NCBI GenBank assembly: GCA_964392785.1
Contig: CAYMRH010000002.1
Location: forward strand, 797-64,796
Origin: an uncultured Brevinematales bacterium
Lineage (GTDB): Bacteria > Spirochaetota > Brevinematia > Brevinematales > JAOACQ01
Direction: 5' to 3'
DNA: 64,000 nt
The notes beneath the pieces are model-generated. The model was not told the DNA's origin. It saw nothing but the letters and a program-made list of their open reading frames with translations, and ran no database searches. The position numbers and the translations under genes are program-made. Positions 49,453 through 64,000 of this stretch are shown piece by piece. The number at the start of each line of letters is the position of its first letter. The first letter of the stretch is position 1.

Positions 49453-49595
49453 GTTTCTATTCTCCTTGACGAATCGATATTATACGACCGGCGGGGAAAA
49501 TTGTCTAACGGACGGGTTCCGTTGATTTTTCCGCGCCGGGACGTGGAATTTTTTCCTGATCCGGAATATAATTTCCGTTTGAGTATCGGATCCGC

Positions 49596-51026
49596 ATGGG
49601 GGCCTCCATGACCAGAATCTTTACGATTATATTTCTCTTCATCGCGGGCGCGCTGTTCGCAGACACCGCAGAGTACGACATCGTAATCCGCAACGGCCGG
49701 GTCATGGATCCCGAAACAAGACTGGATAAAACCGGGCTTTCCGTGGGAATCAACGGCAACCGCGTGGCCATCGTGACCGACAAGGCCCTTCGCGGCCGCA
49801 GGGAAATCGACGCGACGGGACTGGTGGTCGCGCCCGGGTTTATCGACAACCTGACCTACTCTCCCACCACCATGGGCGTGGCGAACAAGATCGCGGACGG
49901 CGTCACCACGCTGATCGACATGCACGGCGGGTCCGCCACGCCGGAAACCTGGTACCCCCTGCAGGACGCCAAAAAATGGCCGGTCAATTACGGCGTATCG
50001 TTTTTTTACACTCAGGTGAGAAACGCATTCGGCCTGTCCCGTTACAAGCCCGCGTCCGAAAAACAGATCCAAAAAGCGGTGGAACTCGCCGCGCACGGGC
50101 TATCCAACGGATGTCTGGGCATTTCTTTCAGCCTGGAATACAATCCCGGCATTACGTCCAACGAAATCGTTCCCCTGATGCGGCTGGCGGACCGGCACGG
50201 CGTTCCCGTATATTTCCACACCAGGTATTCCACCACAAACGAACCGGACACCGGCATTAAAGGCCTGGAGGAGGTGATCGGTTACGCCCGGGAAACGGGC
50301 GCCATGCTCCACATCGACCACATCACGAGCACGGGCGGAACGTTCTGCATGCCGCTGGCGCTCGGCTTGATTGACAAGGCCCGCCGCGAAGGAATGGATG
50401 TCACGGCCTGCCTTTACCCGTATCACTACTGGGCCACTTATCTCAATTCGGCGCGGTTCGACAAGGGCTGGCAGCGGCGTTTCAACATCACTTATTCCGA
50501 CCTTCAGCTGGGCGGCCACACAAACCGTCTCACGCCCGAAACGTTCGCGATCTACCGGGCACAGGGCAAACTGGCCATCGCGTACGCCATTCCCGAAGAG
50601 GACGTCCAGGCCGGACTCCGGTCGCCTTTTGTCATGCTGGGCAGCGACGCCATCCTCTCCCCCAATTTCAACAACCACCCCCGCGCCTCGGGAGCGTTCT
50701 GCCGGACAATCGGCGTGTATGTCCGCGAGCGCAAAGTCCTGTCCCTCATGGACGCGCTGAAAAAAATGACGCTGGACCCGGCCCGGCGACTGGAAAAACG
50801 CTGCCCGGCCATGCGCATCCGGGGACGCCTTTCGGCGGGATCCGCCGCGGATATCACGATTTTCGATTACGATACAATTTCAGACAGGGCCACACCGGAA
50901 CACCCGGAATACCGTTCCACGGGAGTCCGATACGTGATCATAAACGGCGTTCTGGTCAAGGACGGCGACAAGATCCGGAGATCGGGAAAGGGAATCGCCA
51001 TCAAGAGCGACATCGGCTCGCGGTGA
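49596..51026 (+). CDS. secreted amidohydrolase (D-aminoacylase / Amidohydro_3-like)
   Basis: Signal peptide, YDIVIRNGRVMD...IDATGLVVAPGFID N-terminus, and LGSDAI near the C-terminus. The usual HxH after PGFID is replaced by NLT. An alternative ATG lies at 49608. Confidence 0.65.
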   Translation: MGASMTRIFTIIFLFIAGALFADTAEYDIVIRNGRVMDPETRLDKTGLSVGINGNRVAIVTDKALRGRREIDATGLVVAPGFIDNLTYSPTTMGVANKIADGVTTLIDMHGGSATPETWYPLQDAKKWPVNYGVSFFYTQVRNAFGLSRYKPASEKQIQKAVELAAHGLSNGCLGISFSLEYNPGITSNEIVPLMRLADRHGVPVYFHTRYSTTNEPDTGIKGLEEVIGYARETGAMLHIDHITSTGGTFCMPLALGLIDKARREGMDVTACLYPYHYWATYLNSARFDKGWQRRFNITYSDLQLGGHTNRLTPETFAIYRAQGKLAIAYAIPEEDVQAGLRSPFVMLGSDAILSPNFNNHPRASGAFCRTIGVYVRERKVLSLMDALKKMTLDPARRLEKRCPAMRIRGRLSAGSAADITIFDYDTISDRATPEHPEYRSTGVRYVIINGVLVKDGDKIRRSGKGIAIKSDIGSR

Positions 51027-51086: not shown

Positions 51087-52349
51087 TTAGCGGTTGGTGG
51101 TCCGTGTTGCCGGCGGCCGGCTCGGTTTTGCCGGAGCGGGGGCCGGGGCTTTGTTCGTGGCGGGCGCCGGACCTTTGATCAGTTCATCCATCTGCTGGCG
51201 TTTCTGCTGTTCTTCGCGGTATATGAACGAGCTTCCGGGCAGCAGCAGGTTGTACATCAGGGCCACGGTATGCTTCAGAGCCCCCGAATTCAGGCCGTAC
51301 TCGATGGCGTAATCCAGGACCAGCTGGTGCTGCTGGTTGAAGACATAGTTGAAACCGATCCCGCCAGACACTCCGAACGATCCCTGGAGCTGCAGGATCC
51401 AGAGGTCCAGCGTGTCTCCGATCTTTTTGGCCTGGTAGGAGAACCCCATCCTGACCGCGAGCATTTCGCCGGCAAAGGTGTTGCCCTTGAAAAGTTCGCT
51501 GGCGGTCAACTGGCGGAACTCGTAACCCAGGTTCCAGGCCATTTCGGCCTGCCGGTTGTCCGTGGCGTCGCGGCCGTAAGCCACGATCCCGAATCCCAGG
51601 TGGGACTTCTTGAAGATCAGGAGGTTCCCCAATTCCCAGTTGACCCCGAAGGACAGTTCCGAAGGCAGCGTGTCCGTCCCGTCCGGCATGATGGATATGT
51701 TGGGAGAAATCAAATTCCGGTAGGCCAGGCCCAGATGGATGGTTTCGCTGAAATCGTAGGTCGCGCCGATGTCCATGCCGAACGAAAGCCGGCCCAGCTG
51801 GGTAAAGGCCTCGTTCGCCTGGACGTCCACGGTGTTCCCCACGCCGATATCGTACAACGCGAACCGGAATCCCAGCGCCAGTTTCGCGCCCTTGGAAATC
51901 ACGTCGTGCAGGTCCTTGGCGTAATAGAGGCTGTACACGCCCTCGTGATAGAATTCCGTTTCGGTCCCGTCCACGTCCACGCCGCCCACCCCCAGCCGGT
52001 GGAACGACAGCCCCAGCGCCGCGCGCTTGGTGAAAAAGTTGTCCGGCGGAATGGTGAAGGAATTCCAGAACGGTATGCAGAAATTCACGTTGAACGTGTT
52101 GATGCCGGACTGGTCGTTCAATCCCGTGTAGGGCGTGTCCCAGGACAGGTAGGTCTGGATACTGCGCAGGAGGGCCAGGTTGGCCGGGTTGTACATCATG
52201 GTGGCCGCGCCGTCGAAATCCGCGAAGATGGCGTTGCCCATCGCGCGTCCGCGCGTGGAACCGCCGATATCCTCGAACGCGGCGTGGGTCGGCACCGTCG
52301 CTCCCGCCCAGAGGGCCAGGATCCCGAGTGTGATGAGTGCCCGTTTCAT
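51087..52349 (-). CDS. PorV/PorQ-like (FadL-fold) outer-membrane beta-barrel protein
   Basis: Signal peptide (MKRALITLGILALWAGATVPTHA). N-terminal motif GGSTRGRAMGNAIFADFDGAATMMYNPANLA resembles the PorV family. Alternating amphipathic strands rich in G/Y/F. A ~45-aa Pro/Ala-rich C-terminal extension. AGGAGG Shine-Dalgarno 26 nt after the giant-gene stop. Confidence 0.5.
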   Translation of the reverse strand: MKRALITLGILALWAGATVPTHAAFEDIGGSTRGRAMGNAIFADFDGAATMMYNPANLALLRSIQTYLSWDTPYTGLNDQSGINTFNVNFCIPFWNSFTIPPDNFFTKRAALGLSFHRLGVGGVDVDGTETEFYHEGVYSLYYAKDLHDVISKGAKLALGFRFALYDIGVGNTVDVQANEAFTQLGRLSFGMDIGATYDFSETIHLGLAYRNLISPNISIMPDGTDTLPSELSFGVNWELGNLLIFKKSHLGFGIVAYGRDATDNRQAEMAWNLGYEFRQLTASELFKGNTFAGEMLAVRMGFSYQAKKIGDTLDLWILQLQGSFGVSGGIGFNYVFNQQHQLVLDYAIEYGLNSGALKHTVALMYNLLLPGSSFIYREEQQKRQQMDELIKGPAPATNKAPAPAPAKPSRPPATRTTNR

Positions 52350-52375
52350 GTTGTCCTCCTGCCCGGTCTCTTCGC

Positions 52376-55300
52376 CTACCGGACCACGATGATCGTGCCG
52401 CTGTACACGTTCTGCCCGGCCTGGATCCGGTAAATATAAACGCCGCCTTTCACGGCATAACCTTCGTCGTCATGTCCGTCCCAGTACACTTCGCCCTGGC
52501 TGTAGGACCCGCTCCGCTCGAAACTCTTCACCAGATTGCCGCGCAGGTCGTAAATCTTGACCGTGTACTGGTCGTAAGCCCGGTCGAACACCACGCTGAT
52601 CTTGGCGTTGGCCGTGGAACGGCTGCCGGACCGCGGCGTGAACACTTTCGGCTCCACCCGGACCTGGGAGAATCCCGGCACCGTCGTCGCGGGTACGGAC
52701 CCTTCGCCGAATACGGCGTAATACTTGTGCAGGTAACCCGCCTGGATCGTGACCGTATTCGCGGACGTGTCCACCGCGCCGCCCAGACGGATCCATTCCT
52801 TGGTCATGGGCCGCCAGTAATAAACCGCCAGCTTGCTCTCGTCCCATCCCTGCGCCGCGACATTCGAATCCTCGTAATGAAGGACGATCAGGACGTCATT
52901 GGTCAGTTCCTGTTCCTCCATCGGGCTGTCGCTCAAGTCCCGCATATCCACCCAGTACATGGTCACGCTCACCGGGTCCGCGGGCGAGGCAATCGTCTTG
53001 CTCCGGGTCGAGGCCGTCTGCATATCCGTCTCGAACATGTTGGTCAGCCAGATGTCGATGGAGAAATTGCGGATCAGGGTGTTCGGATAAACCGTGATCC
53101 TGGTCGCGCTGTCCTGCTGGGCCAGAATCTCCTGCGGGGACGTGTCCCTCGCGTTCAGGGGCGAATGCCTCAGTACGTTGGTTCCGATGTTCGTCACGGC
53201 GTTCGTCTCGACGATGACCGCCGCCAGGCGGATGTCCTTGTACCGGGGAGACGTGATCACCACGTCGTAGGACCCGCCGGGCACGAAGTCCAGCAGATAG
53301 AAACCGTCGGACGCAGCCGTGCCCAGGATATTGGTCCCGAATTTGTTCGTAACCAGAGTGTCCGTTCCGCTCTGCACGACCTTGACCGACGCGTTCAGGT
53401 AACCCGGAAGGACCGCGCCCGCGACCCGCCCGAAGTCCGGAACTTCCACGGCCAGCGTGCGGGTGGAGGATTCCGGCAGAAGCGTCTCTTCCACAAACGG
53501 CGAACCCGCGAACCGGATCAGGGCCGGCATCGGAACAACGGCGTTCGTGGCCAGGGAATACCGCACCGCGATCCCGACGTTGTCAAACGTCCTCTTCTCC
53601 ACGGGCGTCGCGCCGTAATCCAGGCGGATCCAGTTGGTCCCGCCGAAGTTGGTGATCACCGGCGTCAGGTTGGAACTGGACATCCGGGAGGAGATCAGCC
53701 GGTCCACCGTCATCGCGTTCGTATCGAACGCGATCCACGCCGTCTGGATGCCGAACGCGTAGGATTCGTTCTCGATCTTGTAGCCGATCACCGCGTTGGT
53801 GTCCAGCGTATAGACAACGGGCCGTTCGTAAATATAGGTCCGGCTCTTCTGCTCGGGAATCAGCATGGACAACAGCAGCGTTTCCGGCGCCGTCGTGGAC
53901 GCCGCGGAGTCAACGGCCGAACTCTCGTTGTTCGCGACGACTGTCACCGGATAGGATCCGCTGTCCAGGATCAGGTAATCCAGATCGAAGCTGACCGTGT
54001 CCGTCAGGGACGTCGCGAACCCGCCCGGCAGTTCGTTGGTGTAGTAAATCGAAATCACGTTGCTCGTGACCTGTATGGACGTCGCTTCCGTTGTCAACAG
54101 GTCGCTGGCAAACGATCCGGCGACCGTGTTGGTCAGGGCGAAAGGCGACGCCGGCGGCACGGGCAGAACGATCCGAACAACGGACAGGGAATTGGCGCCC
54201 GACCCGGTATTGACCAGCCGCAGGCTCAACGTGTTGGTCTGCCGGACGGACGCGTTCGTGCAGACGTAGAAGAACGTGTTGATCAGGTGCGCTTCCAGCG
54301 ACGGAGACGGCATGACAAAGGACTGGTTGAGGGCGTTTAAAATGCTCTCCCGGGCCCGCCCGAATCCCGTCCCGTTGTCGGCTCGCACCGTCCAGATATT
54401 GTTGTTGGAAATCCCCTTCTGGAGCCCGTCCATGACACGGAGAGTGATCCGGTCCGAGCTGTTTTTCGGAAGGGCCCCGCCGCCAAAGTTGGTCACGTAA
54501 ACCGTCGTGTTGCTCACAAAAGCCACGCCGTTGGAACTCGCGGCCGACACCACGTTGGTATAAATCGCCGGCAGGTCCACCCTTAAGGACAGGGTGGGCA
54601 ATACGCCCGACGAATTGTTGTTGTAAAACAGCACAAGATCGTTGGTGTATTCCGTGGCCAGCACCGAAAGCGGCGTCACGCTCGCGCTCGGCGGGTTCAC
54701 CACGTTCACGTAATGATCGTACGGGGACAGATTGGTCGCGTCGTTGGTGTGCTGGCCGTTGTAGAATCGGGCCTGCACGAATACGTTGGATTCAAAGCCC
54801 GCTTTGTTGGTCAGAACCATCACCACGGTGTCCGTCATCTGGCTCGTGAAATTGGAATAATCCAGACGCAGCACGCCCGCCGCGTAATTGGTGTTCGTCA
54901 CCAGCGGCGAAAGCTGGAACGTCATGGCCGCGTTCGTGAACACCGCCGGAATGCTGATCCACGCCTGCCGGGGCCTGTTGGATCCCTGGCCCGTGTTGAT
55001 GAAACGGTAGGTCGCCGTGAATGTCCCGTGGGTCGTGAACACCTCGTTGTAATCGAACCTGGCCCGGACGGACGGCTGCGGCATCACAAACGCGATCAGG
55101 TTGGTCCCCACCTTGACGTCCGCCGCCGCGAAAGTTTCCTCGGACGTATAGTAATTCGCCATCACCGAAATCCAGACGTTCGTGTCCCCCAGATCCAGAC
55201 TGTCCGGAACGGTCAGGGTGACGATGTCGTTCGTGTCAATCACGAAAACGTTGCTGGCGTAGACCAGTTCCACGTAATTGGTCCCGTCCATGTTGGTCCA

Positions 55301-58300
55301 GACGCCCGCGCTGGGCAGAACGGTTGAGAACACCGCCCCGTTTGTCACAAACGGTCCCGGCAGGCTGATCCGCAGCCGCCGGACGTCGTTCCCGAAACCG
55401 CCCGAGTTGTTCACCACGGCCTGGAACGTCGTCTGCGCCAGGGAGGTGTCAACCGCATTGGGCGTGACCCGGAAGTCCGCCTGATAACCCGGCTGCACCA
55501 CCTCGAAATTCAGGTCCCCCGCCAGCAGGGTCTGGGACTGCACGAAGGTGTTGGTGTTCGTCGTGTTCGCCGCATAGACCGTCCAGGCCCCCTGGAACCC
55601 CGGCAGGGCCTGGTTGTCCCACGCGATGAAAAATACGGTGTCTTTTTTCTTGGCTGTCAGGTTCGTGTTGGACGCGGCGTAATCAACAAGGATATACCCG
55701 TTGGTGTAAACAAGCCGCCCGCCCAGAACGTTGGACAACCCGCTGATGTTGGTGATGATGTTGGTCAGCGCATTGGTAAACGGCGGCAGGATCTTCAGCA
55801 TCTGGATGTCGTTGCCGATCACGCCGATATTCGTGACGGTCAGCGCGTACATCTGCGACTTCAGGTCCTTGCCCACAGTCCTGGGAGTCACGGCCGCGTA
55901 GGACTGGGAATCCGGCAACACCACCGTAACGGTCAGCGAATTGGTGCCCCGCGGCGTCAAATCGCGGAACCCGCCGCTGTCACCATAGTAGAACACGCTG
56001 TTGGTCCAGTACGCGTCCGTCGGAACCGTGATATACGCCTTCGGCGCATACACCTTGAATGAAGTGAACGAGTTCCCCGTAAAATTGGTCCCGTAATCCA
56101 GATAAATTCCGCCGTTCGACACGGCCCAGGCAAACCCCTTGCCCGTCGAGTACTCCACCACCAAACCCGTGGTCTGGTAGGGATACGGCACGTCCACCTT
56201 CACGGTCTGGATGGGACTGCTCGCGGCGTTGGTCCCGTTCCGCACCACGATCTCCAGCACGTTGGACAGGTCCGTGGTCAGCGCGTTCGTGGGCGTCAGG
56301 TTGACGCCGGGTCTTTCGGTTGAAAACGTGTTCGTGCTCCCGAATATCCGGTTGGTCAGCAGTTCGTAATAGTCGTCGCCCAAAAACTGGAATCCGTTGA
56401 AGGCCGTCAGCGTCCAGGCGTCCGTCACGCCCGGCGCCAGGTTGGAATAGGCCGTGCGGACCGTCAGGACGTCGTTGGACCCCGCGGGGAGATACTGGTT
56501 GGAATAGTAAACCGTGACGTTGGTCGGCGTGAGCTGGATCAGGGCCGGAACCGACAGGTTGGACTGCCCCAGCCACCGGCTGTGCACCACGGTCACCCGG
56601 TTCGTGAACGACGCCGGGAACGCGATGCGGACTTTCTGGAACACGTCCGTTCCCTGGCCGGCGTTGGACACCACGGCCAGGAAGTCCTGCGTTTCGTTGG
56701 TCCCCGTGAAATAGACGTTGGGTGTCATGCCCGCCCCGCCCCGCGGTTTCGGTATGTCAAACTCCAGCGTCCCGGACCCACCGGACTGGACGTTCGTGAC
56801 CGGAACCGTCTCCCGGTCGTTCTGCGCGGTCACGTCCACCGCGACCGGCCCGTACTTCATGCCGTCGATCTTGTCCACCAGGTCAAATGTGATCACGTCG
56901 TTGGACAGGCCGTCCAGGATCTTTCCGCCCAGTTCGTAATTGGCCGTGATCGTGTTCGATGCGATCCCGCCATTGATGTTGCCCAGCAGGGAACTCGAGG
57001 CATTGGTGATGTTCGAAACAATGGCCACCGGCAGCGTGATCACCGCCATCCGGATCCGGTTCCCGGGCAGACCCGTATTGGTCAACGTGACATGCAGCGT
57101 GTTCGTGACCGTGGTCGTGTCGATCTTGTTGGTCTCGATCCGGTATTCGGCCAGGACCGGCGGGTATTCCACCGTCAGGAAATTCGTCGGGCTGAAAAAC
57201 CCCGTCGTGCAGTCGGAATAAAGATTGGTGTCCGAAGTCTCCGCGTTGGTCTTGAAAACCGCCGTCTGCAAGACCAGGTTCGTCAGCTGGTAATTGGTGT
57301 TCGTGAACGTGTCCCAGTCAATCCGGTCCACGAACGTCAATACGACCGTGTCCTTGTCCGGATCCATCGGATTGTCGTTCACGGACTCAAGAAGCCCGTT
57401 GCCGTCCAGGACCCCGTTCGTCCCCTGATAATACAGGAACACGACGTTCGTTCCGTTGCGGTTCGTCACCAGGATATTCTGGTTGGTATTGCTCACATGC
57501 GCGCTGCGCACGCCGATCAGGTTCGTAAACACAGGCGACAGCGTGATCCGCGCCATGCGCACGCCCACGCCCAAAGGAGACGTGTTCCAGATCACGTTGG
57601 TCACCGTGTTCGTGATGTCGCTGGTGTAGATCAGCGGATTGACCACGCGGTTTTCGCCGGCCGGCAGCGGCGGAGAAATCCAGACGCCCCAGCGGGACGG
57701 CAGGTTTTCCTCGCCCAACACGAACCCTTCCGTGTTCCCGTTGTCCCCGTACACCGCCCAATCGCGGTACAGCGCGTTGGTGTCCAGGTTCGTGATCTGG
57801 TGGATCGTCCCGAACGTCAGCATGTCGTTGGATCCCGCCGGCAGGCGGTAACCCAACCCCGCGTTGGTGTAATCGATCAAAATGACGATATTTGAGGGCG
57901 CGGACAGATTGGTCCATACCGTACGGTAGCTGTTCGCGTTCGTGTTCCCGCCCAGCCAGGAACTCTTCACCCGCTCAATATTCGTGAATTCCGCCGGCAC
58001 GTGCACGGCCAATAACAGAATGTCGTTGCCCGCATCGCCCGCGTTCTGGACGGATAGGGTGAAATTGGAAACACTATTGCTCTGAACGGTGGAATTGACG
58101 GCGACGCTGTAGGGCGTCACTCCGGCCGCCGGACGCGGGGAACGGGATATGAGCGTCACGAACTGCCGGCCGTAGTTGGTATTCGTGGTCTGCATCCACG
58201 CCGCGCCCGCCACGAAGGCGTCGCTGTTCACCCAGGATTTCCATTGATAGTTCGTGAACTTCACGCCCGGGTCCAGGTCCGCCGTGCCGTACACGTCGAA

Positions 58301-60214
58301 CGTGATCTTGTCCGAACCGTTCACGCCGGCAACGCTGTAACCCGCGCCGTGATAATCGATATAGATGCAGTTGGACAACGCCAGACTGTCCATGTAATTC
58401 GTGAAATACACGAAATTGGAAGACGCCGCCCCCATCAGTTTGGAGGTGATGTTGCTGATCGCCGTAAAACCCGTGTCCGGAACCGCGATCACCGCCGAAC
58501 TGATTTCCGGCGAAGACGCGTTCCGGCTGGTGTCCAGTTTGTAGGTGTAACTGGCCGAATCCGAACCCTCGTAGTAAGGTATGCGGCTCACGGACACTTC
58601 CCCGTCCGCGCCGGGTTGAGTATAACTTCGCACCGTGAGACCCGACGGGAAGGACACAACGGCCTTCTTGCGCCCGGTCGTGGCGTATTTGATCCCGGTC
58701 GTGTTGTTGAACACCCAGTCGATCCCGCTGTCCGCGTGCTTGACGCTGTCCGCGTACACCTCGAAGGCGTCCCCCGCGCTGTTCGGCGCCGAGGGCGTGT
58801 AGAGAGAAAACGAGACGCTGATCGCCTGACCGTTGGTCATGACGATCCGGTGGTCGTTCGCCGCCGTCGCCCGGAACCGGATCACCATCTCCCCAGACGC
58901 GTTCGTGGTCAGGGAAAAACGCCCGGCGGGCGGGTTCATGTTGGTGTTGGTGTTGGTCTGGATCCCGTACACGTTGGACACCCACACGTTCGTCAGAATC
59001 CAATTGGACACGAATGACGCCGGTTTCCTGATCGCGATCTCCGCGATCCCGCTTTCGTTCGTGGATCCCATGTAATTCGTGATCAAGACTTTGAAGGTCA
59101 CCAGCGCGTTCGTCATCGTGTTCGTCGGGTAAACAGACGCCGTCAGGTTGCTGTTCACGCTCCGGATCAGAAAATGCTTGAGCTGGGAATACACATACTG
59201 ATAGTAAATTGTGGGCTGGTTGCCATCCGGTGTGGGCGATTCGGCTGCAAAATAAGCCGCCAGTTTGTTGGTCCATGCCACGGGAACTTCCGCGAACTTG
59301 ATCCAGGAATTCAGGTAATTATGCGGCGCTCCGCTGTTGTCCCCCGCCGGGTCCAGGTTCAGGTAAATGGATACTTTCTTCCCATCATGGGTCATCTTGA
59401 TGCCCAATTCGTTCGTGGCCGCGAACTCGTTGGTTCCGGACTCGCCTGTCGGTAGACCGCCGGGGAAGGAGAACTGCCGGCGGAATGCGGTATTCGGATC
59501 CAGGGAGTTTCCGTCAATGTCCGTCATGTTGGTCCAGACGTCCACGTAGCCGGAATAATCGCGTTCGTACTGGTCGAAATAACCCCAAACGTTGTTTGTC
59601 CGTGTCCGGGCTGCACCTGTGTTGCACCAGCGGTTGAACGCTTTGTCGTACCAGAATATGAAATTTTCGAAACTGTCGCCCAGGGCTTTGGCTCCATTGT
59701 CTTCGGCCATCCAGACCTCAAACAGGCCCTTGCCGTAGTCTTCATCGAAGTTTCCCACGTTGTTCAGCTGGTTGGCGGCCGTGTTGTCGCGATGGACGAA
59801 AGTCCCGTAACGGACGATCTGGAATCCGAACGGCTGTTCAGCGGACGCGGAGGCGTCCTGGCGGTTCAACTGCGCGTTGGAAACCGGCCGGAACAGGGCG
59901 CCTTTTCCTGTGTACCATTGGTCGAATGCCGAATCCGCATTCGGGTCCCCCCTCATGATCATGCGGGCGTTTGCCGGCTGATTGGACACGAACATATTGG
60001 ATGAACCGTTGCGGGTGTTATAGGTGTTTTCCACCCAGAAATCCCGGGACATGCAGAATTTCATGTTCCAACCGTTGGTGGTCAGCGTAGTCTCGGAGGA
60101 CGAGAAATCCTCGTAATAATACAGGGAACGGGCCTGACCGGCGGCCGTCAAGACAAACAGACAGAAAACGGTAGCGGCACAAACCCGGATTCGTTGTATC
60201 ATTCTGCTTATCAT
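52376..60214 (-). CDS. giant secreted repeat protein A (2612 aa) with a T9SS/FlgD-Ig-like C-terminal domain
   Basis: Longest ORF in the window. Signal peptide MISRMIQRIRVCAATVFCLFVLTAAGQA. A ~330-aa N-terminal globular region (possibly ConA/LamG-like; weak). About 13 divergent 130-150-aa modules with the motif x-N-x-G-x-x-(G/S)-N ... (I/V)x(L/V)P..FTN (CARDB/DUF11-like). A CarboxypepD_reg-like domain (~53183..53431). A 95-aa tail ...KIYDLRGNLVKSFERSGSYSQGEVYWDGHDDEGYAVKGGVYIYRIQAGQNVYSGTIIVVR. Asn/Thr/Ser/Val-rich and Cys-poor. Confidence 0.85.
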   Translation of the reverse strand: MISRMIQRIRVCAATVFCLFVLTAAGQARSLYYYEDFSSSETTLTTNGWNMKFCMSRDFWVENTYNTRNGSSNMFVSNQPANARMIMRGDPNADSAFDQWYTGKGALFRPVSNAQLNRQDASASAEQPFGFQIVRYGTFVHRDNTAANQLNNVGNFDEDYGKGLFEVWMAEDNGAKALGDSFENFIFWYDKAFNRWCNTGAARTRTNNVWGYFDQYERDYSGYVDVWTNMTDIDGNSLDPNTAFRRQFSFPGGLPTGESGTNEFAATNELGIKMTHDGKKVSIYLNLDPAGDNSGAPHNYLNSWIKFAEVPVAWTNKLAAYFAAESPTPDGNQPTIYYQYVYSQLKHFLIRSVNSNLTASVYPTNTMTNALVTFKVLITNYMGSTNESGIAEIAIRKPASFVSNWILTNVWVSNVYGIQTNTNTNMNPPAGRFSLTTNASGEMVIRFRATAANDHRIVMTNGQAISVSFSLYTPSAPNSAGDAFEVYADSVKHADSGIDWVFNNTTGIKYATTGRKKAVVSFPSGLTVRSYTQPGADGEVSVSRIPYYEGSDSASYTYKLDTSRNASSPEISSAVIAVPDTGFTAISNITSKLMGAASSNFVYFTNYMDSLALSNCIYIDYHGAGYSVAGVNGSDKITFDVYGTADLDPGVKFTNYQWKSWVNSDAFVAGAAWMQTTNTNYGRQFVTLISRSPRPAAGVTPYSVAVNSTVQSNSVSNFTLSVQNAGDAGNDILLLAVHVPAEFTNIERVKSSWLGGNTNANSYRTVWTNLSAPSNIVILIDYTNAGLGYRLPAGSNDMLTFGTIHQITNLDTNALYRDWAVYGDNGNTEGFVLGEENLPSRWGVWISPPLPAGENRVVNPLIYTSDITNTVTNVIWNTSPLGVGVRMARITLSPVFTNLIGVRSAHVSNTNQNILVTNRNGTNVVFLYYQGTNGVLDGNGLLESVNDNPMDPDKDTVVLTFVDRIDWDTFTNTNYQLTNLVLQTAVFKTNAETSDTNLYSDCTTGFFSPTNFLTVEYPPVLAEYRIETNKIDTTTVTNTLHVTLTNTGLPGNRIRMAVITLPVAIVSNITNASSSLLGNINGGIASNTITANYELGGKILDGLSNDVITFDLVDKIDGMKYGPVAVDVTAQNDRETVPVTNVQSGGSGTLEFDIPKPRGGAGMTPNVYFTGTNETQDFLAVVSNAGQGTDVFQKVRIAFPASFTNRVTVVHSRWLGQSNLSVPALIQLTPTNVTVYYSNQYLPAGSNDVLTVRTAYSNLAPGVTDAWTLTAFNGFQFLGDDYYELLTNRIFGSTNTFSTERPGVNLTPTNALTTDLSNVLEIVVRNGTNAASSPIQTVKVDVPYPYQTTGLVVEYSTGKGFAWAVSNGGIYLDYGTNFTGNSFTSFKVYAPKAYITVPTDAYWTNSVFYYGDSGGFRDLTPRGTNSLTVTVVLPDSQSYAAVTPRTVGKDLKSQMYALTVTNIGVIGNDIQMLKILPPFTNALTNIITNISGLSNVLGGRLVYTNGYILVDYAASNTNLTAKKKDTVFFIAWDNQALPGFQGAWTVYAANTTNTNTFVQSQTLLAGDLNFEVVQPGYQADFRVTPNAVDTSLAQTTFQAVVNNSGGFGNDVRRLRISLPGPFVTNGAVFSTVLPSAGVWTNMDGTNYVELVYASNVFVIDTNDIVTLTVPDSLDLGDTNVWISVMANYYTSEETFAAADVKVGTNLIAFVMPQPSVRARFDYNEVFTTHGTFTATYRFINTGQGSNRPRQAWISIPAVFTNAAMTFQLSPLVTNTNYAAGVLRLDYSNFTSQMTDTVVMVLTNKAGFESNVFVQARFYNGQHTNDATNLSPYDHYVNVVNPPSASVTPLSVLATEYTNDLVLFYNNNSSGVLPTLSLRVDLPAIYTNVVSAASSNGVAFVSNTTVYVTNFGGGALPKNSSDRITLRVMDGLQKGISNNNIWTVRADNGTGFGRARESILNALNQSFVMPSPSLEAHLINTFFYVCTNASVRQTNTLSLRLVNTGSGANSLSVVRIVLPVPPASPFALTNTVAGSFASDLLTTEATSIQVTSNVISIYYTNELPGGFATSLTDTVSFDLDYLILDSGSYPVTVVANNESSAVDSAASTTAPETLLLSMLIPEQKSRTYIYERPVVYTLDTNAVIGYKIENESYAFGIQTAWIAFDTNAMTVDRLISSRMSSSNLTPVITNFGGTNWIRLDYGATPVEKRTFDNVGIAVRYSLATNAVVPMPALIRFAGSPFVEETLLPESSTRTLAVEVPDFGRVAGAVLPGYLNASVKVVQSGTDTLVTNKFGTNILGTAASDGFYLLDFVPGGSYDVVITSPRYKDIRLAAVIVETNAVTNIGTNVLRHSPLNARDTSPQEILAQQDSATRITVYPNTLIRNFSIDIWLTNMFETDMQTASTRSKTIASPADPVSVTMYWVDMRDLSDSPMEEQELTNDVLIVLHYEDSNVAAQGWDESKLAVYYWRPMTKEWIRLGGAVDTSANTVTIQAGYLHKYYAVFGEGSVPATTVPGFSQVRVEPKVFTPRSGSRSTANAKISVVFDRAYDQYTVKIYDLRGNLVKSFERSGSYSQGEVYWDGHDDEGYAVKGGVYIYRIQAGQNVYSGTIIVVR

Positions 60215-60220
60215 AACAAC

Positions 60221-63200
60221 CTACCGCACAATCACGATGGTGCCGGAATAGACCTGCCCGCCCGCCAGGACGCGGTAAATATACACGCCGCCCTTGACCG
60301 GGTAGCCGTCGTCGTCCCGGGAATCCCACGCCACTTCGCCCTGGTTGTAGGACCCCTTGCGGGCAAAACTCTTCACCAGGTTGCCGCGCAGGTCAAAGAT
60401 CCTGACTTCATACCCGTCCGGCGCCTGCAGGGCGTCCAGCTCGAAGGTGATCCGCACGTTGCCGAAATACCCGTCCGCGCTCTTGGTAGGCGTGAAAATC
60501 TTGGGCCGCGCGGCCACGTTCCGGATCACGCCGTCTGCCGCCACACCGCCGAACACGCCGTACAGATCGTGCAAGAACCCGGCCTTCAGGACCACCTGTT
60601 TGTTCACGCTGTCCACGGTGCCGCCCATCTTTGTCCAGCGGCCCGCCACGCGGTCCCAATAATACGCGGAGAGTTCCGTTTCGCTCCAGCCGCGGGACGC
60701 GATGTCTGTCGCGTCGTATCCCAGGTAGATAATGGCGTCCAGCTTCAGAACCTCTCCTTCCACGACGGCGTTGGGCAGGTTCCGGATGTCAAACCAGTAC
60801 CCCTGCAATCCCGCCGTGGTCGAGGGCGCTTTCACTTTCGAATTCCGGTTCAAGTCCGCCTTCTGTTCCGCCGTCAGGTCCACCATCCGGATGTCCAGGG
60901 ACATGTCTCGTTCAAGTCCCGCCACGGGGAACTCCACGCGGGAATTTGTGGATTCGTAACTCGCCACCGTCTGGTTGGTGAGAGAATCCGGGTCCAGTAC
61001 GGCATTCTGCATGGTGATGATGGACACGAGATTCTCCATGTTCGACAGAATCGTAACCGTCCCGCGGTAGGTCCGGAACCGGGACGCGGCGAGCTCCAGA
61101 GTATAGTCCCCGGCGGGAATAAAGGAAAACGCGTATTCGCCGTTGGTTCCGGTCACTGTCCCGGCCAGTTCCCCGTCAATATTGGTGGCCAATACGGAAG
61201 TACCCGGCTGGTACAGTTTGGCGGCCACGGCATATCCGCGCGGGAAGATCTCCCCTTTCAGTTTGCCCCAGAGCGCGTCGTTCACGGACAGCACCTGGGT
61301 GTATCCGGCGTTCACCGTACCGAACGTCCCGTTCGTCACCCCCGTCAGGACCACCGTGGAGGTCAGCATGGTATTCGTCACGTTCGTGATGGAATAGTTC
61401 AAATACAGGGTGATGATGTCCCGCTGGCTGAACGGGATGGCGTTCGCGCTGTAATCAATTTCTATGGCCGAGCCCGTGTTGTTCACCACGGAACCGGCCC
61501 ACGTGTTGGACACCGCCGCCACACGGATCAGGTTCGAATCATAAGGAATGCTCGCGCTGGTCAGGGACGTGTTGAGCGAACCGTTCAGGATCCGGTATTC
61601 TATCCGGTCGTTGGTGTTGATCGTGAAAATGGAACTGCGCCCGTTGATGTAACCCTGGACCGTGACCGCCGGGAATTCCACCCTCAGATTAAGCGCTCCC
61701 GCCCCGCCTTCACCCGGAACCGCCACGTACCGGCCTTCGATGTCGCCGTTGGTCAGGTTCACGGCCTCGGCCGTAATGGTCATGTTCGTGGCCGACTCCA
61801 GCGTGTTGGAAAAAGACAGCCACACCACGTCCGTGCCGGCGGCCGGCACCAGGTTCGTGTTCTGGTACTGGACCGTCACGACGTTGCCGGCTATGGATGA
61901 GCCGGCGTCCGTGAAGAACTGGTTGCTGAGCACCGTCAGTCCCGCCAGCGCCTGCGGGATCGCAAACCGGAAGCGCGACAGCCCGTTACTGCCCGTGCCT
62001 TTGTTGTAGACCGTGACCGCCATGTTCGTCTGGCCTGTCGTGGTGTAGAACTGGTTGTAGGACAATTTCGCGGTCGCCGCGGCGGCGGGCATGGTGAACG
62101 CCACGTTGGTAGAACCGGACACGTCCTGGTCCATCAGCACCCAGGAACTGCCGTTATGCGCTCTTGCGGAAATCCCGGCGTTCGTGTCTCCCACCGCCAG
62201 GCCGTCGGAGAGCCGGAAGGTCACGGCGTCGTTCCCGCCCGATGACAGTTCGTTCCCGTCAGAAACGTAATCCAGCGTCAGGCTCGTGATCATGCCGTAA
62301 ATGTTGTCCCGGTTCGTGATCACCAGGCTGTTCGTCATGAGGATCCCTGTGAACGGGCTGGAAAATTCCAGAACCACCTTCTGGACTTTCGCCTTCCCGC
62401 CCGTGTTGTTCAGGATGAAGACGTTCACGTCGTTGGACGCCGTGGTGGTGGACAGGGCGTTGGGTGTCACGTAATAGGTGGGCACGGTCACGATGTCCAG
62501 TTGCCGGCCGTCCACCGCCAGGTCCGATACGCCTGACGCATAGACCGCGTTGTCCACCTGGCAGGCAAACGTGTGGTTGGTGGGGGTCAGGACGGCCGAA
62601 CGCAGGGTCAGGTACACCGTGTCGTTCGAACCCGGAACAAAATTGTTCGAGTAATCCAGCGTCAGAACTCCCGTCCCGCCGTCGTAAGCCGCGTTCGTGG
62701 CTAGGGAGTTGCTCGCGTCTGCGGCGTTAAAAAGCGCCCGGTAGGGCTCCGGCAGCGTGATGCGCGCCCGGAAAATGTCCCCCGAGCCGTCCCCGGTGTT
62801 CGTGATCCGGAATCCCAGCACAAAATTGGTGGTCCTGGTGTACACTTCACGGGGCAACGGGCTCACAATCCCCGCCCGGGCCGCCGGCGACGGCATGAGG
62901 AAATACGACTGCCAGCTCTTCCCCGCGTATTCCTGCCCGGCCTTGTACCGGTTGTCCGTCGTATCATAGGCCACGGCGTTCGTCCACGCGAAGTTTGTTT
63001 CCCCGTAAAGATACAGGTCGTTCACCTTGATCTGCACCGCGTCATAATCTCCGGGCACGATCGGGCTGTCGTACACGATCTCGAAAGCCGTCCGGTCGTT
63101 GGTCAAAGTGATGGACGCGGCCCGGCTGTTGGTCACCTGCAGGGAATTGGTGTCAAAAAAGTCCGCCCCGCCCGGCACGGAAACCCACACTCGGGTCATA

Positions 63201-64000
63201 TTGTTGCCCGACCCGCTCTGGTTATATATGTAGTAATTGAACGTGTTGGAGACGCGCGTGGTCCAGACCTTGTTCCTGTTGGATTCGGACCCGTCGATCG
63301 CGTTCAACGCCTCCAGATAGGCCGCCGCCTTCACGTTCGGCGTGTAAATGATGTTGGACAGCGTCTTACCGGCCGGCACCGTGATGTCCGCACGGTAGCT
63401 CTCGTCGTTCGTGGTCGCGTTCGCCACCTGCACGCGCCATTGGGACTGCACCGTGCCCGTGGCCACGCTGTCAAATCCGATCATGCGGATCGTGTCCGTC
63501 TCCAGGGCCAGCAGGTCCTTTCCGGCGGCGTCGTAATCAATCCAGACGTTGGTTCCGTCGTAAACGCCCGAGAGCTGCTTGGTCAGACAGGTCACGGAAG
63601 TGATGTTCGTGATCGCGGCCGGGGGCGTGAATTTCACGATCTTGATGTTGTTCCCGCTGTCCCCGGTGTTCTTGAGGTAAAATTCATAGGTGTAATTGGT
63701 GAAATCCTCGGGCACGAATTCTCCGGCCGTGATGTACCCCGTCCCGCTCGCCGGCGGGAAGGAAAACGAAACCGTCACGCTCTTGCCGATTTCCACCGCC
63801 GTATCGCGCCATCCCCCGCCGTCCGCATAATCCGCCTGAGCGCCCAATACGGAATAATTGGTCCCGATCGCCCAGTTGTCGTCCAGCACGAAACGGATAT
63901 TGTCCGCCTCCCCGGCCTGGAGGCCTGAGGAATAATTTACCAATATCCAGCGCGTGCTCGCGTTGATGTTCGTGACCGCCGTCGTTCCCGGCTGTTCGAT
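60221..64000 (-). CDS. giant secreted repeat protein B (5'-partial; at least 1259 aa in window), paralog of A
   Basis: The frame stays open from 63943 to 64000 (IEQPGTTAVTNINASTRWI precedes the track's TTG 'start'), so the gene continues beyond the window. It has the same module motif (YEFYLKNTGDSGNNIKIVKFTPPAAITN; FRITNTGDGSGDIFRARITLPEPY). It has the same C-terminal architecture and tail (...RIFDLRGNLVKSFARKGSYNQGEVAWDSRDDDGYPVKGGVYIYRVLAGGQVYSGTIVIVR). Its stop lies 6 nt before the start of A. Confidence 0.8.
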   Translation of the reverse strand: MEQPGTTAVTNINASTRWILVNYSSGLQAGEADNIRFVLDDNWAIGTNYSVLGAQADYADGGGWRDTAVEIGKSVTVSFSFPPASGTGYITAGEFVPEDFTNYTYEFYLKNTGDSGNNIKIVKFTPPAAITNITSVTCLTKQLSGVYDGTNVWIDYDAAGKDLLALETDTIRMIGFDSVATGTVQSQWRVQVANATTNDESYRADITVPAGKTLSNIIYTPNVKAAAYLEALNAIDGSESNRNKVWTTRVSNTFNYYIYNQSGSGNNMTRVWVSVPGGADFFDTNSLQVTNSRAASITLTNDRTAFEIVYDSPIVPGDYDAVQIKVNDLYLYGETNFAWTNAVAYDTTDNRYKAGQEYAGKSWQSYFLMPSPAARAGIVSPLPREVYTRTTNFVLGFRITNTGDGSGDIFRARITLPEPYRALFNAADASNSLATNAAYDGGTGVLTLDYSNNFVPGSNDTVYLTLRSAVLTPTNHTFACQVDNAVYASGVSDLAVDGRQLDIVTVPTYYVTPNALSTTTASNDVNVFILNNTGGKAKVQKVVLEFSSPFTGILMTNSLVITNRDNIYGMITSLTLDYVSDGNELSSGGNDAVTFRLSDGLAVGDTNAGISARAHNGSSWVLMDQDVSGSTNVAFTMPAAAATAKLSYNQFYTTTGQTNMAVTVYNKGTGSNGLSRFRFAIPQALAGLTVLSNQFFTDAGSSIAGNVVTVQYQNTNLVPAAGTDVVWLSFSNTLESATNMTITAEAVNLTNGDIEGRYVAVPGEGGAGALNLRVEFPAVTVQGYINGRSSIFTINTNDRIEYRILNGSLNTSLTSASIPYDSNLIRVAAVSNTWAGSVVNNTGSAIEIDYSANAIPFSQRDIITLYLNYSITNVTNTMLTSTVVLTGVTNGTFGTVNAGYTQVLSVNDALWGKLKGEIFPRGYAVAAKLYQPGTSVLATNIDGELAGTVTGTNGEYAFSFIPAGDYTLELAASRFRTYRGTVTILSNMENLVSIITMQNAVLDPDSLTNQTVASYESTNSRVEFPVAGLERDMSLDIRMVDLTAEQKADLNRNSKVKAPSTTAGLQGYWFDIRNLPNAVVEGEVLKLDAIIYLGYDATDIASRGWSETELSAYYWDRVAGRWTKMGGTVDSVNKQVVLKAGFLHDLYGVFGGVAADGVIRNVAARPKIFTPTKSADGYFGNVRITFELDALQAPDGYEVRIFDLRGNLVKSFARKGSYNQGEVAWDSRDDDGYPVKGGVYIYRVLAGGQVYSGTIVIVR

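What the first reader, a model, noticed from the sequence alone, without database searches (positions are those of the whole stretch)
53645..59107. About 13 highly divergent ~140-aa modules in giant protein A sharing one compact motif: candidate unclassified repeat family
Reading the translation, the same short signature recurs roughly every 130-150 residues while the rest of each module has diverged. Examples in A are FTLSVQNAGDAGNDILLLAVHVPAEFTN, LHVTLTNTGLPGNRIRMAVITLPVAIVSN, FLAVVSNAGQGTDVFQKVRIAFPASFTN, YALTVTNIGVIGNDIQMLKILPPFTN, FQAVVNNSGGFGNDVRRLRISLPGPFVTN and ATYRFINTGQGSNRPRQAWISIPAVFTN. In B, examples are YEFYLKNTGDSGNNIKIVKFTPPAAITN, FNYYIYNQSGSGNNMTRVWVSVPGG and MAVTVYNKGTGSNGLSRFRFAIPQAL. 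Each module usually also has a later ..(I/V)..Y.......L..G(S/G)NDx(L/I)TF.. strand. The strand-turn-strand pattern V.N.G.....v.v..P recalls CARDB/DUF11 Ig-like domains. However, the period is about 40% longer than those domains, so each unit may be an Ig-like domain plus an extra subdomain. Divergence at the DNA level (no near-identical DNA repeats visible) argues for an old, selected array rather than recent slippage. The proteins are extremely Asn/Thr-rich, and many N-x-S/T tripeptides are visible (NIT, NAS, NVT, NLT, NTT, NFT ...). These could be glycosylation sequons or just compositional bias.
Basis: seen in the sequence. Interest (0 to 1): 0.55.

Follow-up and report, generated by a model that had tools for sequence, protein, structure and literature searches.

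The report
New beta-sandwich repeat in giant spirochaete protein
The region encodes 12 clear plus one degenerate end-to-end copies of a roughly 138-residue all-beta domain that no curated family describes; the copies most likely form the long stalk of a giant surface protein of an uncultured Brevinematales spirochaete, which makes this a real but not revolutionary new domain family.

Summary
Gene A (52376-60214, minus strand, 2612 aa) carries 12 canonical modules (aa 533-2259) plus one divergent module (aa ~352-540). They tile with no linkers, at a period of 123-170 aa. A profile built only from protein B finds the modules of A in register. Shuffled A gives nothing.

Each module is one compact 12-strand beta domain (AlphaFold2 pLDDT 93.6, pTM 0.87). 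It is not an Ig domain plus an extra subdomain. Pfam and NCBIfam have no match; CARDB is hit weakly by 3 of 70 modules. The best solved folds (integrin thigh/calf, cohesins, YcnI) reach only TM 0.57-0.68.

An exhaustive profile search of 1.84 billion representatives finds only 168 proteins. Those that carry names are mostly Spirochaetota MAGs.

Module k of A matches module k of its orthologues, and there are no DNA repeats. The array is therefore old and frozen.

N-x-S/T sequons are not enriched (41 observed, 40.6 expected).

Architecture of A: signal peptide, concanavalin-A-like head, 13 modules, C-terminal cassette ending in a FlgD_ig / T9SS-CTD-like domain. A full-length paralogue (B) lies upstream and a PorP/SprF-PorV-family outer-membrane barrel gene lies downstream, a synteny conserved in several genomes.

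Best reading: stalk modules of a paired giant, lectin-headed surface fibril. This is a new member of a known kind.

The parts
52376..60214 (-). Gene A: 2612-aa giant secreted protein. Order of parts: signal peptide, head, 13 modules, C-terminal cassette.
   Evidence: ORF list and translation. The identical protein P0001 is found in an NCBI assembly, and orthologues are 33-50% identical.
60131..60214 (-). Sec-type signal peptide (aa 1-28, MISRMIQRIRVCAATVFCLFVLTAAGQA). The mature N-terminus RSLYYYEDF is conserved in the family.
   Evidence: Read from the translation. The conserved S-x-YYY-E-x-F start after a hydrophobic leader is seen in 17 relatives. The cleavage site is inferred and was not run through a predictor.
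59147..60130 (-). N-terminal head (aa 29-356), concanavalin-A-like lectin/glucanase jelly-roll fold.
   Evidence: AlphaFold2 with a 17-sequence alignment gives pLDDT 70 and pTM 0.80. The listed top 50 Foldseek PDB hits are predominantly ConA-like folds (GH16, legume lectins, ERGIC-53/VIP36, PL7), E 2e-6 to 3e-4, with low TM of 0.3-0.5. There are no sequence-level hits in PDB or Pfam.
58619..59146 (-). Module 0 (aa ~352-540), a divergent copy of the repeat.
   Evidence: HMMER is marginal (E 0.18). hhalign of its orthologue alignment A5 against module alignment A2 gives probability 70% and E 3.9e-5. The equivalent module is significant in P0003 and P0004.
58136..58618 (-). Module 1 (aa 533-693)
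   Evidence: Family profile, 67.6 bits, profile positions 2-138.
57668..58141 (-). Module 2 (aa 692-849)
   Evidence: 80.0 bits.
57161..57673 (-). Module 3 (aa 848-1018)
   Evidence: 59.7 bits.
56750..57166 (-). Module 4 (aa 1017-1155)
   Evidence: 93.6 bits.
56309..56755 (-). Module 5 (aa 1154-1302)
   Evidence: 92.7 bits.
55913..56308 (-). Module 6 (aa 1303-1434)
   Evidence: 58.1 bits.
55490..55918 (-). Module 7 (aa 1433-1575)
   Evidence: 93.3 bits.
55079..55495 (-). Module 8 (aa 1574-1712), the module whose structure was predicted.
   Evidence: 85.2 bits. AlphaFold2 pLDDT 93.6, pTM 0.87, 12 strands.
54689..55084 (-). Module 9 (aa 1711-1842)
   Evidence: 75.1 bits.
54308..54697 (-). Module 10 (aa 1840-1969)
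   Evidence: 68.6 bits.
53855..54313 (-). Module 11 (aa 1968-2120)
   Evidence: 58.3 bits.
53438..53860 (-). Module 12 (aa 2119-2259)
   Evidence: 51.5 bits.
53180..53431 (-). CarboxypepD_reg-like small beta domain (aa ~2262-2345).
   Evidence: The homologous stretch in B hits PF13620 at E 1.9e-6, below the gathering score. It is conserved in all family loci.
52655..53179 (-). Conserved pre-CTD domain (aa ~2346-2520), unclassified.
   Evidence: tblastn shows conservation in every related locus. No Pfam hit.
52379..52654 (-). C-terminal domain (aa ~2521-2612), FlgD_ig / T9SS-CTD-like.
   Evidence: PF13860 FlgD_ig 30.7 bits (cut-off 27); CHU_C E 7e-4; TIGR04183 Por_Secre_tail E 2e-3. It is the best-conserved part between A and B, 58% identical.
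60221..64000 (-). Gene B, a full-length paralogue of A. Only the C-terminal 1259 aa lie in the window. Its stop codon is 6 nt upstream of A's start codon.
   Evidence: Translation. B-type orthologues are 2543-2573 aa with the same head, 12 modules and C-terminal cassette.
61280..63994 (-). Modules of B: one truncated by the window edge (63755-63994), then six complete (63338-63760, 62891-63295, 62480-62896, 62087-62491, 61670-62092, 61280-61675).
   Evidence: Family profile, 39-84 bits. They are colinear with A modules 6-12.
51087..52349 (-). 420-aa outer-membrane beta-barrel gene of the PorV/PorQ-PorP/SprF (FadL-like) family, 26 nt downstream of A.
   Evidence: NCBIfam PorV_fam E 6.2e-10 over profile positions 3-321 of 326, and PorP/SprF E 9e-5, both below cut-off. 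Orthologue P0196 (51% identical) passes the Pfam PorP_SprF gathering score (34 bits versus 22.3). Synteny with the giant genes holds in L001, L004, L008 and L011, and in Leptospiraceae locus L005.

Best explanation
Shown: the finding lies in the central part of a 2612-aa secreted protein of a Brevinematales spirochaete. That part is a head-to-tail array of 12 canonical copies plus one degenerate copy of a ~138-residue all-beta domain. The domain's sequence family is absent from Pfam and NCBIfam. The 'compact motif' (V-x-N-x-G-x-x-G-N-x-I...I-x-x-P-x-x-F-T-N) is a beta-hairpin (strand, turn, strand) plus the following Pro/Thr-Asn segment. The later '..Y....G-S-N-D-x-x-T-F' is a second hairpin. 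Together they hold the two nearly invariant residues (N30 and Y79 of the module).

Inferred: the modules are structural spacers. Stacked without linkers, they would form a rod some tens of nanometres long. The rod would hold an N-terminal concanavalin-A-like (lectin/glucanase-fold) head away from the cell. The C-terminal cassette (CarboxypepD_reg-like domain, unclassified domain, FlgD_ig / T9SS-CTD-like domain) would stay at the outer membrane. There it is probably bound or handled by the co-transcribed PorP/SprF-PorV-family barrel, in the way SprF holds the giant adhesin SprB in Flavobacterium.

The protein is made together with a full-length paralogue (B) encoded 6 nt upstream. The two may act as a pair. 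The number and order of modules have been fixed since before A and B duplicated, so the modules are individually conserved and not interchangeable.
For: Repeat reality.

Single-domain fold: AlphaFold2 pLDDT 93.6, pTM 0.87, 12 strands. Foldseek gives only generic ~140-aa beta-sandwiches (integrin alpha thigh/calf, cohesins 2vo8/5n5p/2xdh, YcnI, the CLIPPER domain of a fibrillar adhesin) at TM 0.49-0.68 and 18% identity or less.

No curated family matches.

Rarity and taxonomy: 168 hits among 1.84e9 representatives, with up to 34 modules per protein. Named members are Brevinematia/Brevinematales, Leptospiraceae and Spirochaetota MAGs, plus one Gemmatimonadota protein.

Frozen array: position-specific orthology. 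B-type paralogues also have 12 modules. No DNA repeats.

Surface-protein architecture: signal peptide and conserved mature N-terminus; ConA-like head; FlgD_ig/CHU_C/Por_Secre_tail-like C-terminal domain, which is the most conserved part.

Partner barrel. Conserved B-A-barrel synteny.

Precedents: SprB-SprF and PG1035-PorP binding (PMC9143113). Definition of fibrillar adhesins as a stalk of tandem domains plus an adhesive domain (bioRxiv 10.1101/2020.12.07.414375).
Against: - There is no experimental or expression evidence.
- The head model is only moderately confident (pLDDT 70), its TM-scores to lectins are low (0.3-0.5), and no ligand site was identified.
- The C-terminal domain reaches only the FlgD_ig threshold, not those of the T9SS CTD models.
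- The window's barrel protein itself is below the PorV/PorP cut-offs.
- T9SS is described as restricted to Bacteroidetes/FCB (PMC4793230), and no T9SS core gene was seen in the window.
- The barrel is not adjacent to the giants in two loci (L002, L003).
- The rod geometry was not modelled because no multi-module prediction was run.
Confidence: 0.62

Rival explanations
1. The modules are ordinary CARDB/DUF11-type Ig-like domains that carry an extra subdomain. This is the first reader's model, and the family would then be a long variant of an existing Pfam repeat.
For: The V-x-N-x-G hairpin resembles CARDB/NEW3. In Pfam, 3 of 70 modules hit CARDB (best E 0.003) and 1 hits NPCBM_assoc/NEW3 (E 0.022).
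Against: 67 of 70 modules give no CARDB hit, and DUF11 is never hit. The profile of 138 positions is conserved over the whole period. AlphaFold2 gives one compact domain with pTM 0.87, not two. No entry described as CARDB appears among the top 50 Foldseek hits.
Confidence: 0.12
2. The modules are cohesin-like docking sites. A and B would be scaffoldins, and each position-specific module would bind a different partner protein.
For: Cohesin modules are among the best structural matches (2vo8, 5n5p, 2xdh; E 4e-5, TM 0.57-0.59) and have the same size. Strict position-specific conservation of each module fits module-specific partners.
Against: TM below 0.6, rmsd about 4.5 A and 7-18% identity indicate only generic sandwich similarity. 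There is no sequence match to cohesin in Pfam or PDB. There are no inter-module linkers. No dockerin-like partners were seen in the neighbourhood.
Confidence: 0.08
3. A and B are building blocks of a surface coat (an S-layer or sheath-like lattice) rather than projecting adhesins.
For: Two co-translated paralogues are always encoded together. The composition is acidic, Thr/Asn/Ser-rich and Cys-poor. The genomic context is housekeeping.
Against: A head, rod and anchor architecture with a lectin-fold head is typical of fibrils. Nothing here tests lattice formation.
Confidence: 0.12
4. The Asn/Thr richness reflects heavy N-glycosylation at N-x-S/T sequons.
For: Many sequons are visible (41 in A, 21 in B).
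Against: The counts equal the composition-shuffled expectation in A, B and six relatives (z -0.6 to 1.8). The real bias is the dipeptide T-N, which is not a sequon.
Confidence: 0.05

Closest known systems
Stalk domains of bacterial fibrillar adhesins (tandem Ig-like / beta-sandwich repeats such as Big, CnaB, SdrD_B, and the CLIPPER domain in PDB 9ifr)
   Same: There is a long head-to-tail array of beta-sandwich domains between an N-terminal putative binding domain and a cell-proximal C-terminal anchor. The protein is secreted by a Sec signal peptide and is more than 2500 aa long. This fits the definition in bioRxiv 10.1101/2020.12.07.414375.
   Different: The sequence family is not in Pfam. 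The unit has ~138 aa and 12 strands rather than ~80-100 aa. The copies are only ~20% identical and are position-specifically conserved rather than homogenised. There is no conserved Lys, so isopeptide bonds are unlikely (inference from the alignment). The host is an uncultured spirochaete lineage.
CARDB (PF07705) / NEW3 (PF10633) / DUF11 (PF01345) domains
   Same: They share the strand-turn-strand signature V-x-N-x-G...v-x-v-x-x-P, tandem occurrence in large surface proteins, and weak sub-threshold hits for a few modules.
   Different: The module is about 40% longer and conserved over its whole length. 67 of 70 modules give no hit, and DUF11 is never hit.
Cohesin modules and integrin alpha thigh/calf domains (closest solved folds)
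   Same: Both are ~140-residue beta-sandwiches. They are the best Foldseek matches, with E about 2e-5 to 5e-5 and TM 0.57-0.63. YcnI reaches TM 0.68.
   Different: Identity is 7-18% and rmsd 4-6 A. There is no sequence-profile relationship. No dockerin or integrin context exists.
SprB-SprF (type B CTD cargo plus cognate PorP-like barrel) of the Bacteroidota type IX secretion system
   Same: A giant repetitive surface protein with a conserved C-terminal domain is encoded immediately upstream of a PorP/SprF-PorV-family 14-strand-type barrel gene (PMC9143113).
   Different: The host phylum is Spirochaetota, where T9SS is not described (PMC4793230). The C-terminal domain passes only the FlgD_ig threshold. 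No T9SS core genes were seen in the window. Two paralogous cargos are present instead of one.

Membership tests
CARDB (PF07705) | Match to the Pfam model at or above its gathering score | tested here: not met
   The whole proteins give no hit at E<=1. Of 70 modules scanned singly, 3 hit, with best E 0.003.
CARDB (PF07705) | Domain size of about 100 residues with a 7-strand Ig-like sandwich (stated from knowledge of the family, not checked here) | tested here: not met
   The module profile has 138 positions and tiles without linkers. The model has 12 strands in one domain.
DUF11 (PF01345) | Match to the Pfam model | tested here: not met
   It is absent from the 25 listed families (of 30) hit by any of the 70 modules at E<=1.
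Cohesin (PF00963) | Sequence-profile match to cohesin | tested here: not met
   No Pfam hit. The module profile has no significant hit against PDB sequences.
Cohesin (PF00963) | Cohesin jelly-roll fold | tested here: inconclusive
   Foldseek TM 0.57-0.59 and rmsd about 4.5 A to 2vo8, 5n5p and 2xdh. Strand topology could not be inspected because no coordinates were available.
Fibrillar adhesin (Monzon et al. definition) | Stalk of tandemly repeated domains | tested here: met
   13 abutting modules.
Fibrillar adhesin (Monzon et al. definition) | At least one adhesive domain | tested here: inconclusive
   The head is predicted as a ConA-like lectin/glucanase fold. The model has moderate confidence and no binding site or ligand is known.
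Fibrillar adhesin (Monzon et al. definition) | Attachment at the cell surface | not testable with these tools
   Only inferred from the signal peptide, the CTD-like domain and the adjacent barrel gene.
T9SS cargo with type B CTD plus cognate PorP/SprF | C-terminal domain matching CHU_C / TIGR04131-type or Por_Secre_tail models above threshold | tested here: not met
   CHU_C 20.1 bits (cut-off 27). Por_Secre_tail 11.4 bits in Pfam and 18 bits in TIGR04183 (cut-off 23). Only FlgD_ig passes, at 30.7 versus 27.
T9SS cargo with type B CTD plus cognate PorP/SprF | Adjacent gene for a PorP/SprF-family outer-membrane barrel | tested here: met
   The window barrel gives PorV_fam E 6e-10 over the full profile length and PorP/SprF E 9e-5, both below cut-off. 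Its 51%-identical orthologue P0196 passes the Pfam PorP_SprF gathering score. Synteny holds in five or more loci.
T9SS cargo with type B CTD plus cognate PorP/SprF | T9SS core machinery (SprA/Sov, PorK/L/M/N) in the same genome | not tested
   Only the 64-kb window and +-10 kb of related loci could be read. None of the ORFs scanned there matched a T9SS core family. No whole genome was searchable.
FlgD_ig (PF13860) C-terminal domain | Match at or above the gathering score | tested here: met
   A scores 30.7 bits against a cut-off of 27. B scores 23.7 bits, which is below it.
N-glycoprotein with enriched sequons | N-x-S/T density above the composition-shuffled expectation | tested here: not met
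   A: 41 versus 40.6 +- 5.6. B: 21 versus 17.3 +- 3.7. Relatives give z -0.6 to 1.8.

The most novel reading that the evidence does not exclude
The B-A-barrel operon may be a self-contained surface-display module related to the type-B-CTD/PorP branch of type IX secretion, but operating in Spirochaetota (Brevinematia and Leptospiraceae), outside the FCB superphylum. It would export and anchor a heterotypic pair of ~60-nm lectin-headed fibrils built from a previously undescribed 138-residue beta-sandwich domain. The strictly position-specific modules might each carry a distinct binding surface.
Probability: 0.15. Interest if true: 0.7.

Novelty: new member of a known kind. Interest (0 to 1): 0.4.

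Why it matters
It defines a domain family that curated databases lack. The family has about 170 representative proteins with 12 to 34 copies each. It would turn about 70% of several 2500-5500-aa 'hypothetical proteins' of Brevinematia and other spirochaete MAGs into annotated stalk regions.

It also gives a clear example of a tandem array that has been frozen in number and order since an ancient gene duplication. This contrasts with the homogenised repeats of most adhesins.

The linked observation is a hint that CTD/PorP-type anchoring may exist outside the phyla where type IX secretion is known. The giant CTD-bearing proteins sit next to a PorP/SprF-PorV-family barrel gene in two spirochaete classes. 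The barrel gene occurs in the cultured species Thermospira aquatica, but no giant gene lies within 10 kb of it there, and whether that genome encodes the giants was not determined.

Tried and rejected
- Self-BLASTP of A against itself returned only the identity hit because contained HSPs are culled. It was replaced by phmmer/hmmsearch iteration.
- A simple regular expression for the motif found only 3 of 12 modules in A, because the motif is too degenerate for a pattern.
- The module profile found nothing significant against PDB sequences. The same was true for the head profile, the barrel profile and the C-terminal cassette.
- The search for homologous proteins with the module alignment returned no hit through the word index. 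The exhaustive HMMER search had already given the family.
- The look-up of encoding contigs could not locate the window's own contig through P0001.
- The minus-strand ORFs 50100-50678 and 49440-50096 were first taken as operon members. They have no family hits, and the real gene there is a plus-strand amidohydrolase at 49596-51026. The plus-strand ORFs overlapping gene A (52337-54340 and 56582-57895) have no hits and are treated as shadow ORFs.
- Literature searches for Brevinematales or Brevinematia giant proteins, and for T9SS in Spirochaetes/Spirochaetota or Leptospira, found nothing on this family.
- A GH16-type catalytic motif (E-x-D-x-x-E) was looked for by eye in the head consensus and not seen. 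This is an inference, not a formal test.
Full report
WHAT IS THERE

The finding lies inside a 7839-nt minus-strand gene, A (52376-60214, 2612 aa). Six nucleotides upstream ends a second giant gene, B (60221 to beyond 64000), which runs off the window; 1259 aa are visible. Pfam and NCBIfam recognise only the extreme C-termini. In A, FlgD_ig scores 30.7 bits, with weaker CHU_C and Por_Secre_tail hits. In B there is a CarboxypepD_reg-like stretch. Nothing matches the central 1700 residues.

CHECKING THE OBSERVATION

Single modules used as phmmer queries hit the other modules in register. Iteration converges on 12 modules in A and 6 plus 1 truncated module in B. With orthologues included, the profile has 138 positions, and consecutive envelopes abut with no linker: 533-693, 692-849, and so on to 2119-2259.

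Two controls show this is not circular or compositional:
- A profile trained on B alone recovers nine A modules at 13-52 bits. In 100 shuffles of A the maximum was 7.1 bits.
- 68% of raw Smith-Waterman scores between A modules exceed the 95th percentile of module-versus-shuffled-module scores.

A thirteenth, N-proximal module (aa ~352-540) is marginal by HMMER. A profile-profile comparison supports it (probability 70%, E 3.9e-5). 'About 13' is therefore right, as 12 plus 1 degenerate.

Tandem Repeats Finder reports nothing in 52376-64000. The only long DNA repeat is the C-terminal domain shared by A and B at 74%.

WHAT A MODULE IS

AlphaFold2 was run on module 8 with a 70-module alignment. It gives one compact all-beta domain with 12 strands (pLDDT 93.6, pTM 0.87). 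The second motif is strands 72-79 and 89-98. N30 and Y79 are the two nearly invariant positions.

Foldseek against the PDB gives only generic ~140-residue sandwiches at TM 0.49-0.68 and 7-18% identity. These are integrin alpha thigh/calf, three cohesins, YcnI, the CLIPPER domain of a fibrillar adhesin and the diphtheria toxin R domain.

At the sequence level, CARDB is hit by 3 of 70 modules (best E 0.003), NEW3 by one, and DUF11 by none. The module is thus a single domain, not 'Ig plus an extra subdomain'. It is at most a very distant relative of CARDB-like domains.

HOW WIDESPREAD IT IS

An exhaustive HMMER search of 1.84 billion representatives finds 168 proteins at E<=1e-3, of which 76 are below 1e-30. 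Most are 2200-5500 aa with 10-34 modules. Named members are Brevinematia/Brevinematales MAGs and 'Brevinematales bacterium NS', Leptospiraceae and Spirochaetota MAGs, and one weak Gemmatimonadota protein. All are 'hypothetical' or named after FlgD_ig.

HOW OLD THE ARRAY IS

Module k of A is the best match of module k in P0002 (12 of 12), in P0005 (11 of 12), and in P0003 with a shift of one (11 of 12). Within-protein similarities are much lower.

B-type paralogues in three other genomes are full-length copies with the same head, 12 modules and C-terminal cassette. A modules 7, 9, 10 and 12 pair best with the colinear B modules.

The 12-module array therefore predates the A/B duplication and has since been frozen in number and order. 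This is the opposite of slippage-driven repeats.

THE GLYCOSYLATION HINT

N-x-S/T counts equal the shuffled expectation (A 41 versus 40.6; B 21 versus 17.3; relatives z -0.6 to 1.8). The real anomaly is the dipeptide Thr-Asn. In A it occurs 93 times against 24 expected (z 15.6), and z is 8-19 in Brevinematia relatives. It is concentrated at fixed module positions: after the conserved Pro in 40 of 70 modules, and before the W-strand in 23 of 70. It explains the short GTTCGT/GTTGGT DNA matches. Its meaning is unexplained.

THE REST OF THE PROTEIN AND THE NEIGHBOURHOOD

Residues 1-28 look like a Sec signal peptide. The mature start S-x-YYY-E-x-F is conserved in 17 relatives.

Residues 29-356 fold into a jelly roll (pLDDT 70, pTM 0.80). 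Its listed top Foldseek hits are predominantly concanavalin-A-like lectins or glucanases: GH16, legume lectins, ERGIC-53/VIP36 and PL7.

After module 12 comes a cassette conserved in every relative: a CarboxypepD_reg-like domain, an unclassified ~175-aa domain, and the FlgD_ig-type C-terminal domain. This last domain is the best-conserved part between A and B (58%).

Twenty-six nucleotides downstream of A lies a 420-aa outer-membrane barrel gene (51087-52349). It matches NCBIfam PorV/PorQ over the full profile length (E 6e-10) and PorP/SprF (E 9e-5), both below cut-off. A 51%-identical orthologue passes the Pfam PorP_SprF threshold.

The order B-A-barrel recurs in L001, L004 and L011, and A-barrel recurs in L008. 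In a Leptospiraceae MAG the barrel lies just upstream of a giant pair. The barrel is absent next to the giants in L002 and L003.

The rest of the window is housekeeping: PGM, Usp, an HD domain protein, sigma-54, FapA, UvrB and SSF transporters. The next gene after the barrel is a convergent amidohydrolase. Plus-strand ORFs over gene A have no family hits.

INTERPRETATION

Shown:
- a real, ancient, linker-less array of a single-domain beta-sandwich family not represented in Pfam or NCBIfam;
- a secreted-protein architecture with a lectin-fold head and a CTD-like tail;
- conserved pairing with a paralogue and with a PorP/PorV-family barrel.

Inferred:
- The modules are a rigid stalk. Thirteen sandwiches would give a rod of some tens of nanometres. 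This is my estimate and was not modelled.
- The stalk presents the head away from the outer membrane, as in fibrillar adhesins (bioRxiv 10.1101/2020.12.07.414375).
- The C-terminus is held by the barrel, as SprF holds SprB and PorP holds PG1035 (PMC9143113).

Against a full T9SS analogy:
- the phylum, since T9SS was reported only in Bacteroidetes (PMC4793230);
- the sub-threshold CTD scores;
- the lack of visible core genes, which I could not search for genome-wide.

Rivals are listed with their tests: a long CARDB variant, a cohesin-like scaffold, a surface lattice, and a glycoprotein.

VERDICT

The sub-domain and glycosylation ideas do not hold. It is a new domain family of a familiar kind, namely stalk repeats of giant bacterial surface proteins. 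It has an interesting but unproven side link to PorP/CTD-type anchoring in spirochaetes.

Noticed in passing
window 52376-64000 (proteins A and B); also P0002-P0008: The dipeptide Thr-Asn is strongly over-represented. In A it occurs 93 times against 24 expected (z 15.6), in B 31 against 10, and z is 8-19 in Brevinematia relatives. It is not enriched in the Leptospiraceae or Gemmatimonadota hits. It sits at fixed module positions, often at the start of strands. The cause is unknown.
   Followed up: partly
window 51087-52349 (-): A PorV/PorQ-PorP/SprF-family outer-membrane barrel gene lies directly downstream of gene A. It is syntenic with the giant pair in at least five other loci, including a Leptospiraceae MAG. 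The arrangement resembles sprB-sprF, in a phylum not known to have T9SS.
   Followed up: partly
window 59147-60130 (-): The N-terminal head of A (aa 29-356) is predicted to have a concanavalin-A-like lectin/glucanase jelly-roll fold, with no sequence-level family match. The invariant residues in 17 relatives include Y5, F9, W21, R29, P100, G102, R107, D115, N258, P261 and N274 of the head alignment.
   Followed up: partly
window 60221-64000 (-): Gene B is cut by the window end. Its orthologues are 2543-2573 aa, so about half of it, including the head and modules 1-5, lies outside the window.
   Followed up: yes
L001 17871-19586: The barrel orthologue in MAG DeMMO3_10 is 571 aa. It has a ~180-aa C-terminal extension full of short T-N-Y / T-N-F repeats (for example TNYLLANYLGTNYIATNY...), which echoes the TN bias of the giant proteins.
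   Followed up: no
L008 (CAYOJI010000135.1, 2769 nt): A 2.8-kb contig carries the end of a giant A-type gene plus the barrel gene. It is binned as 'uncultured Nitrospiraceae bacterium'. It is 53-60% identical to the Brevinematia genes and is probably mis-binned.
   Followed up: no
L010 (Thermospira aquatica CP073355.1, 579672-601012): The cultured Brevinematia species Thermospira aquatica has the barrel orthologue (54% identical). No giant gene lies within 10 kb of it, and IS/transposase genes flank it. Whether the giants exist elsewhere in that genome was not determined.
   Followed up: no
window 49440-50678 (-), 52337-54340 (+), 56582-57895 (+): These are long ORFs without any family hit in this 59% G+C DNA. 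The first two overlap a real plus-strand amidohydrolase gene (49596-51026). The others are antisense to gene A. All are likely shadow ORFs.
   Followed up: yes
window 23592-25199 (-) and 26282-27742 (-): Two sodium:solute symporter (SSF) paralogues lie close together. Elsewhere in the window are FapA, sigma-54, UvrB, ribosomal protein S1 and two PGM/PMM genes. This is an ordinary chromosomal context.
   Followed up: no
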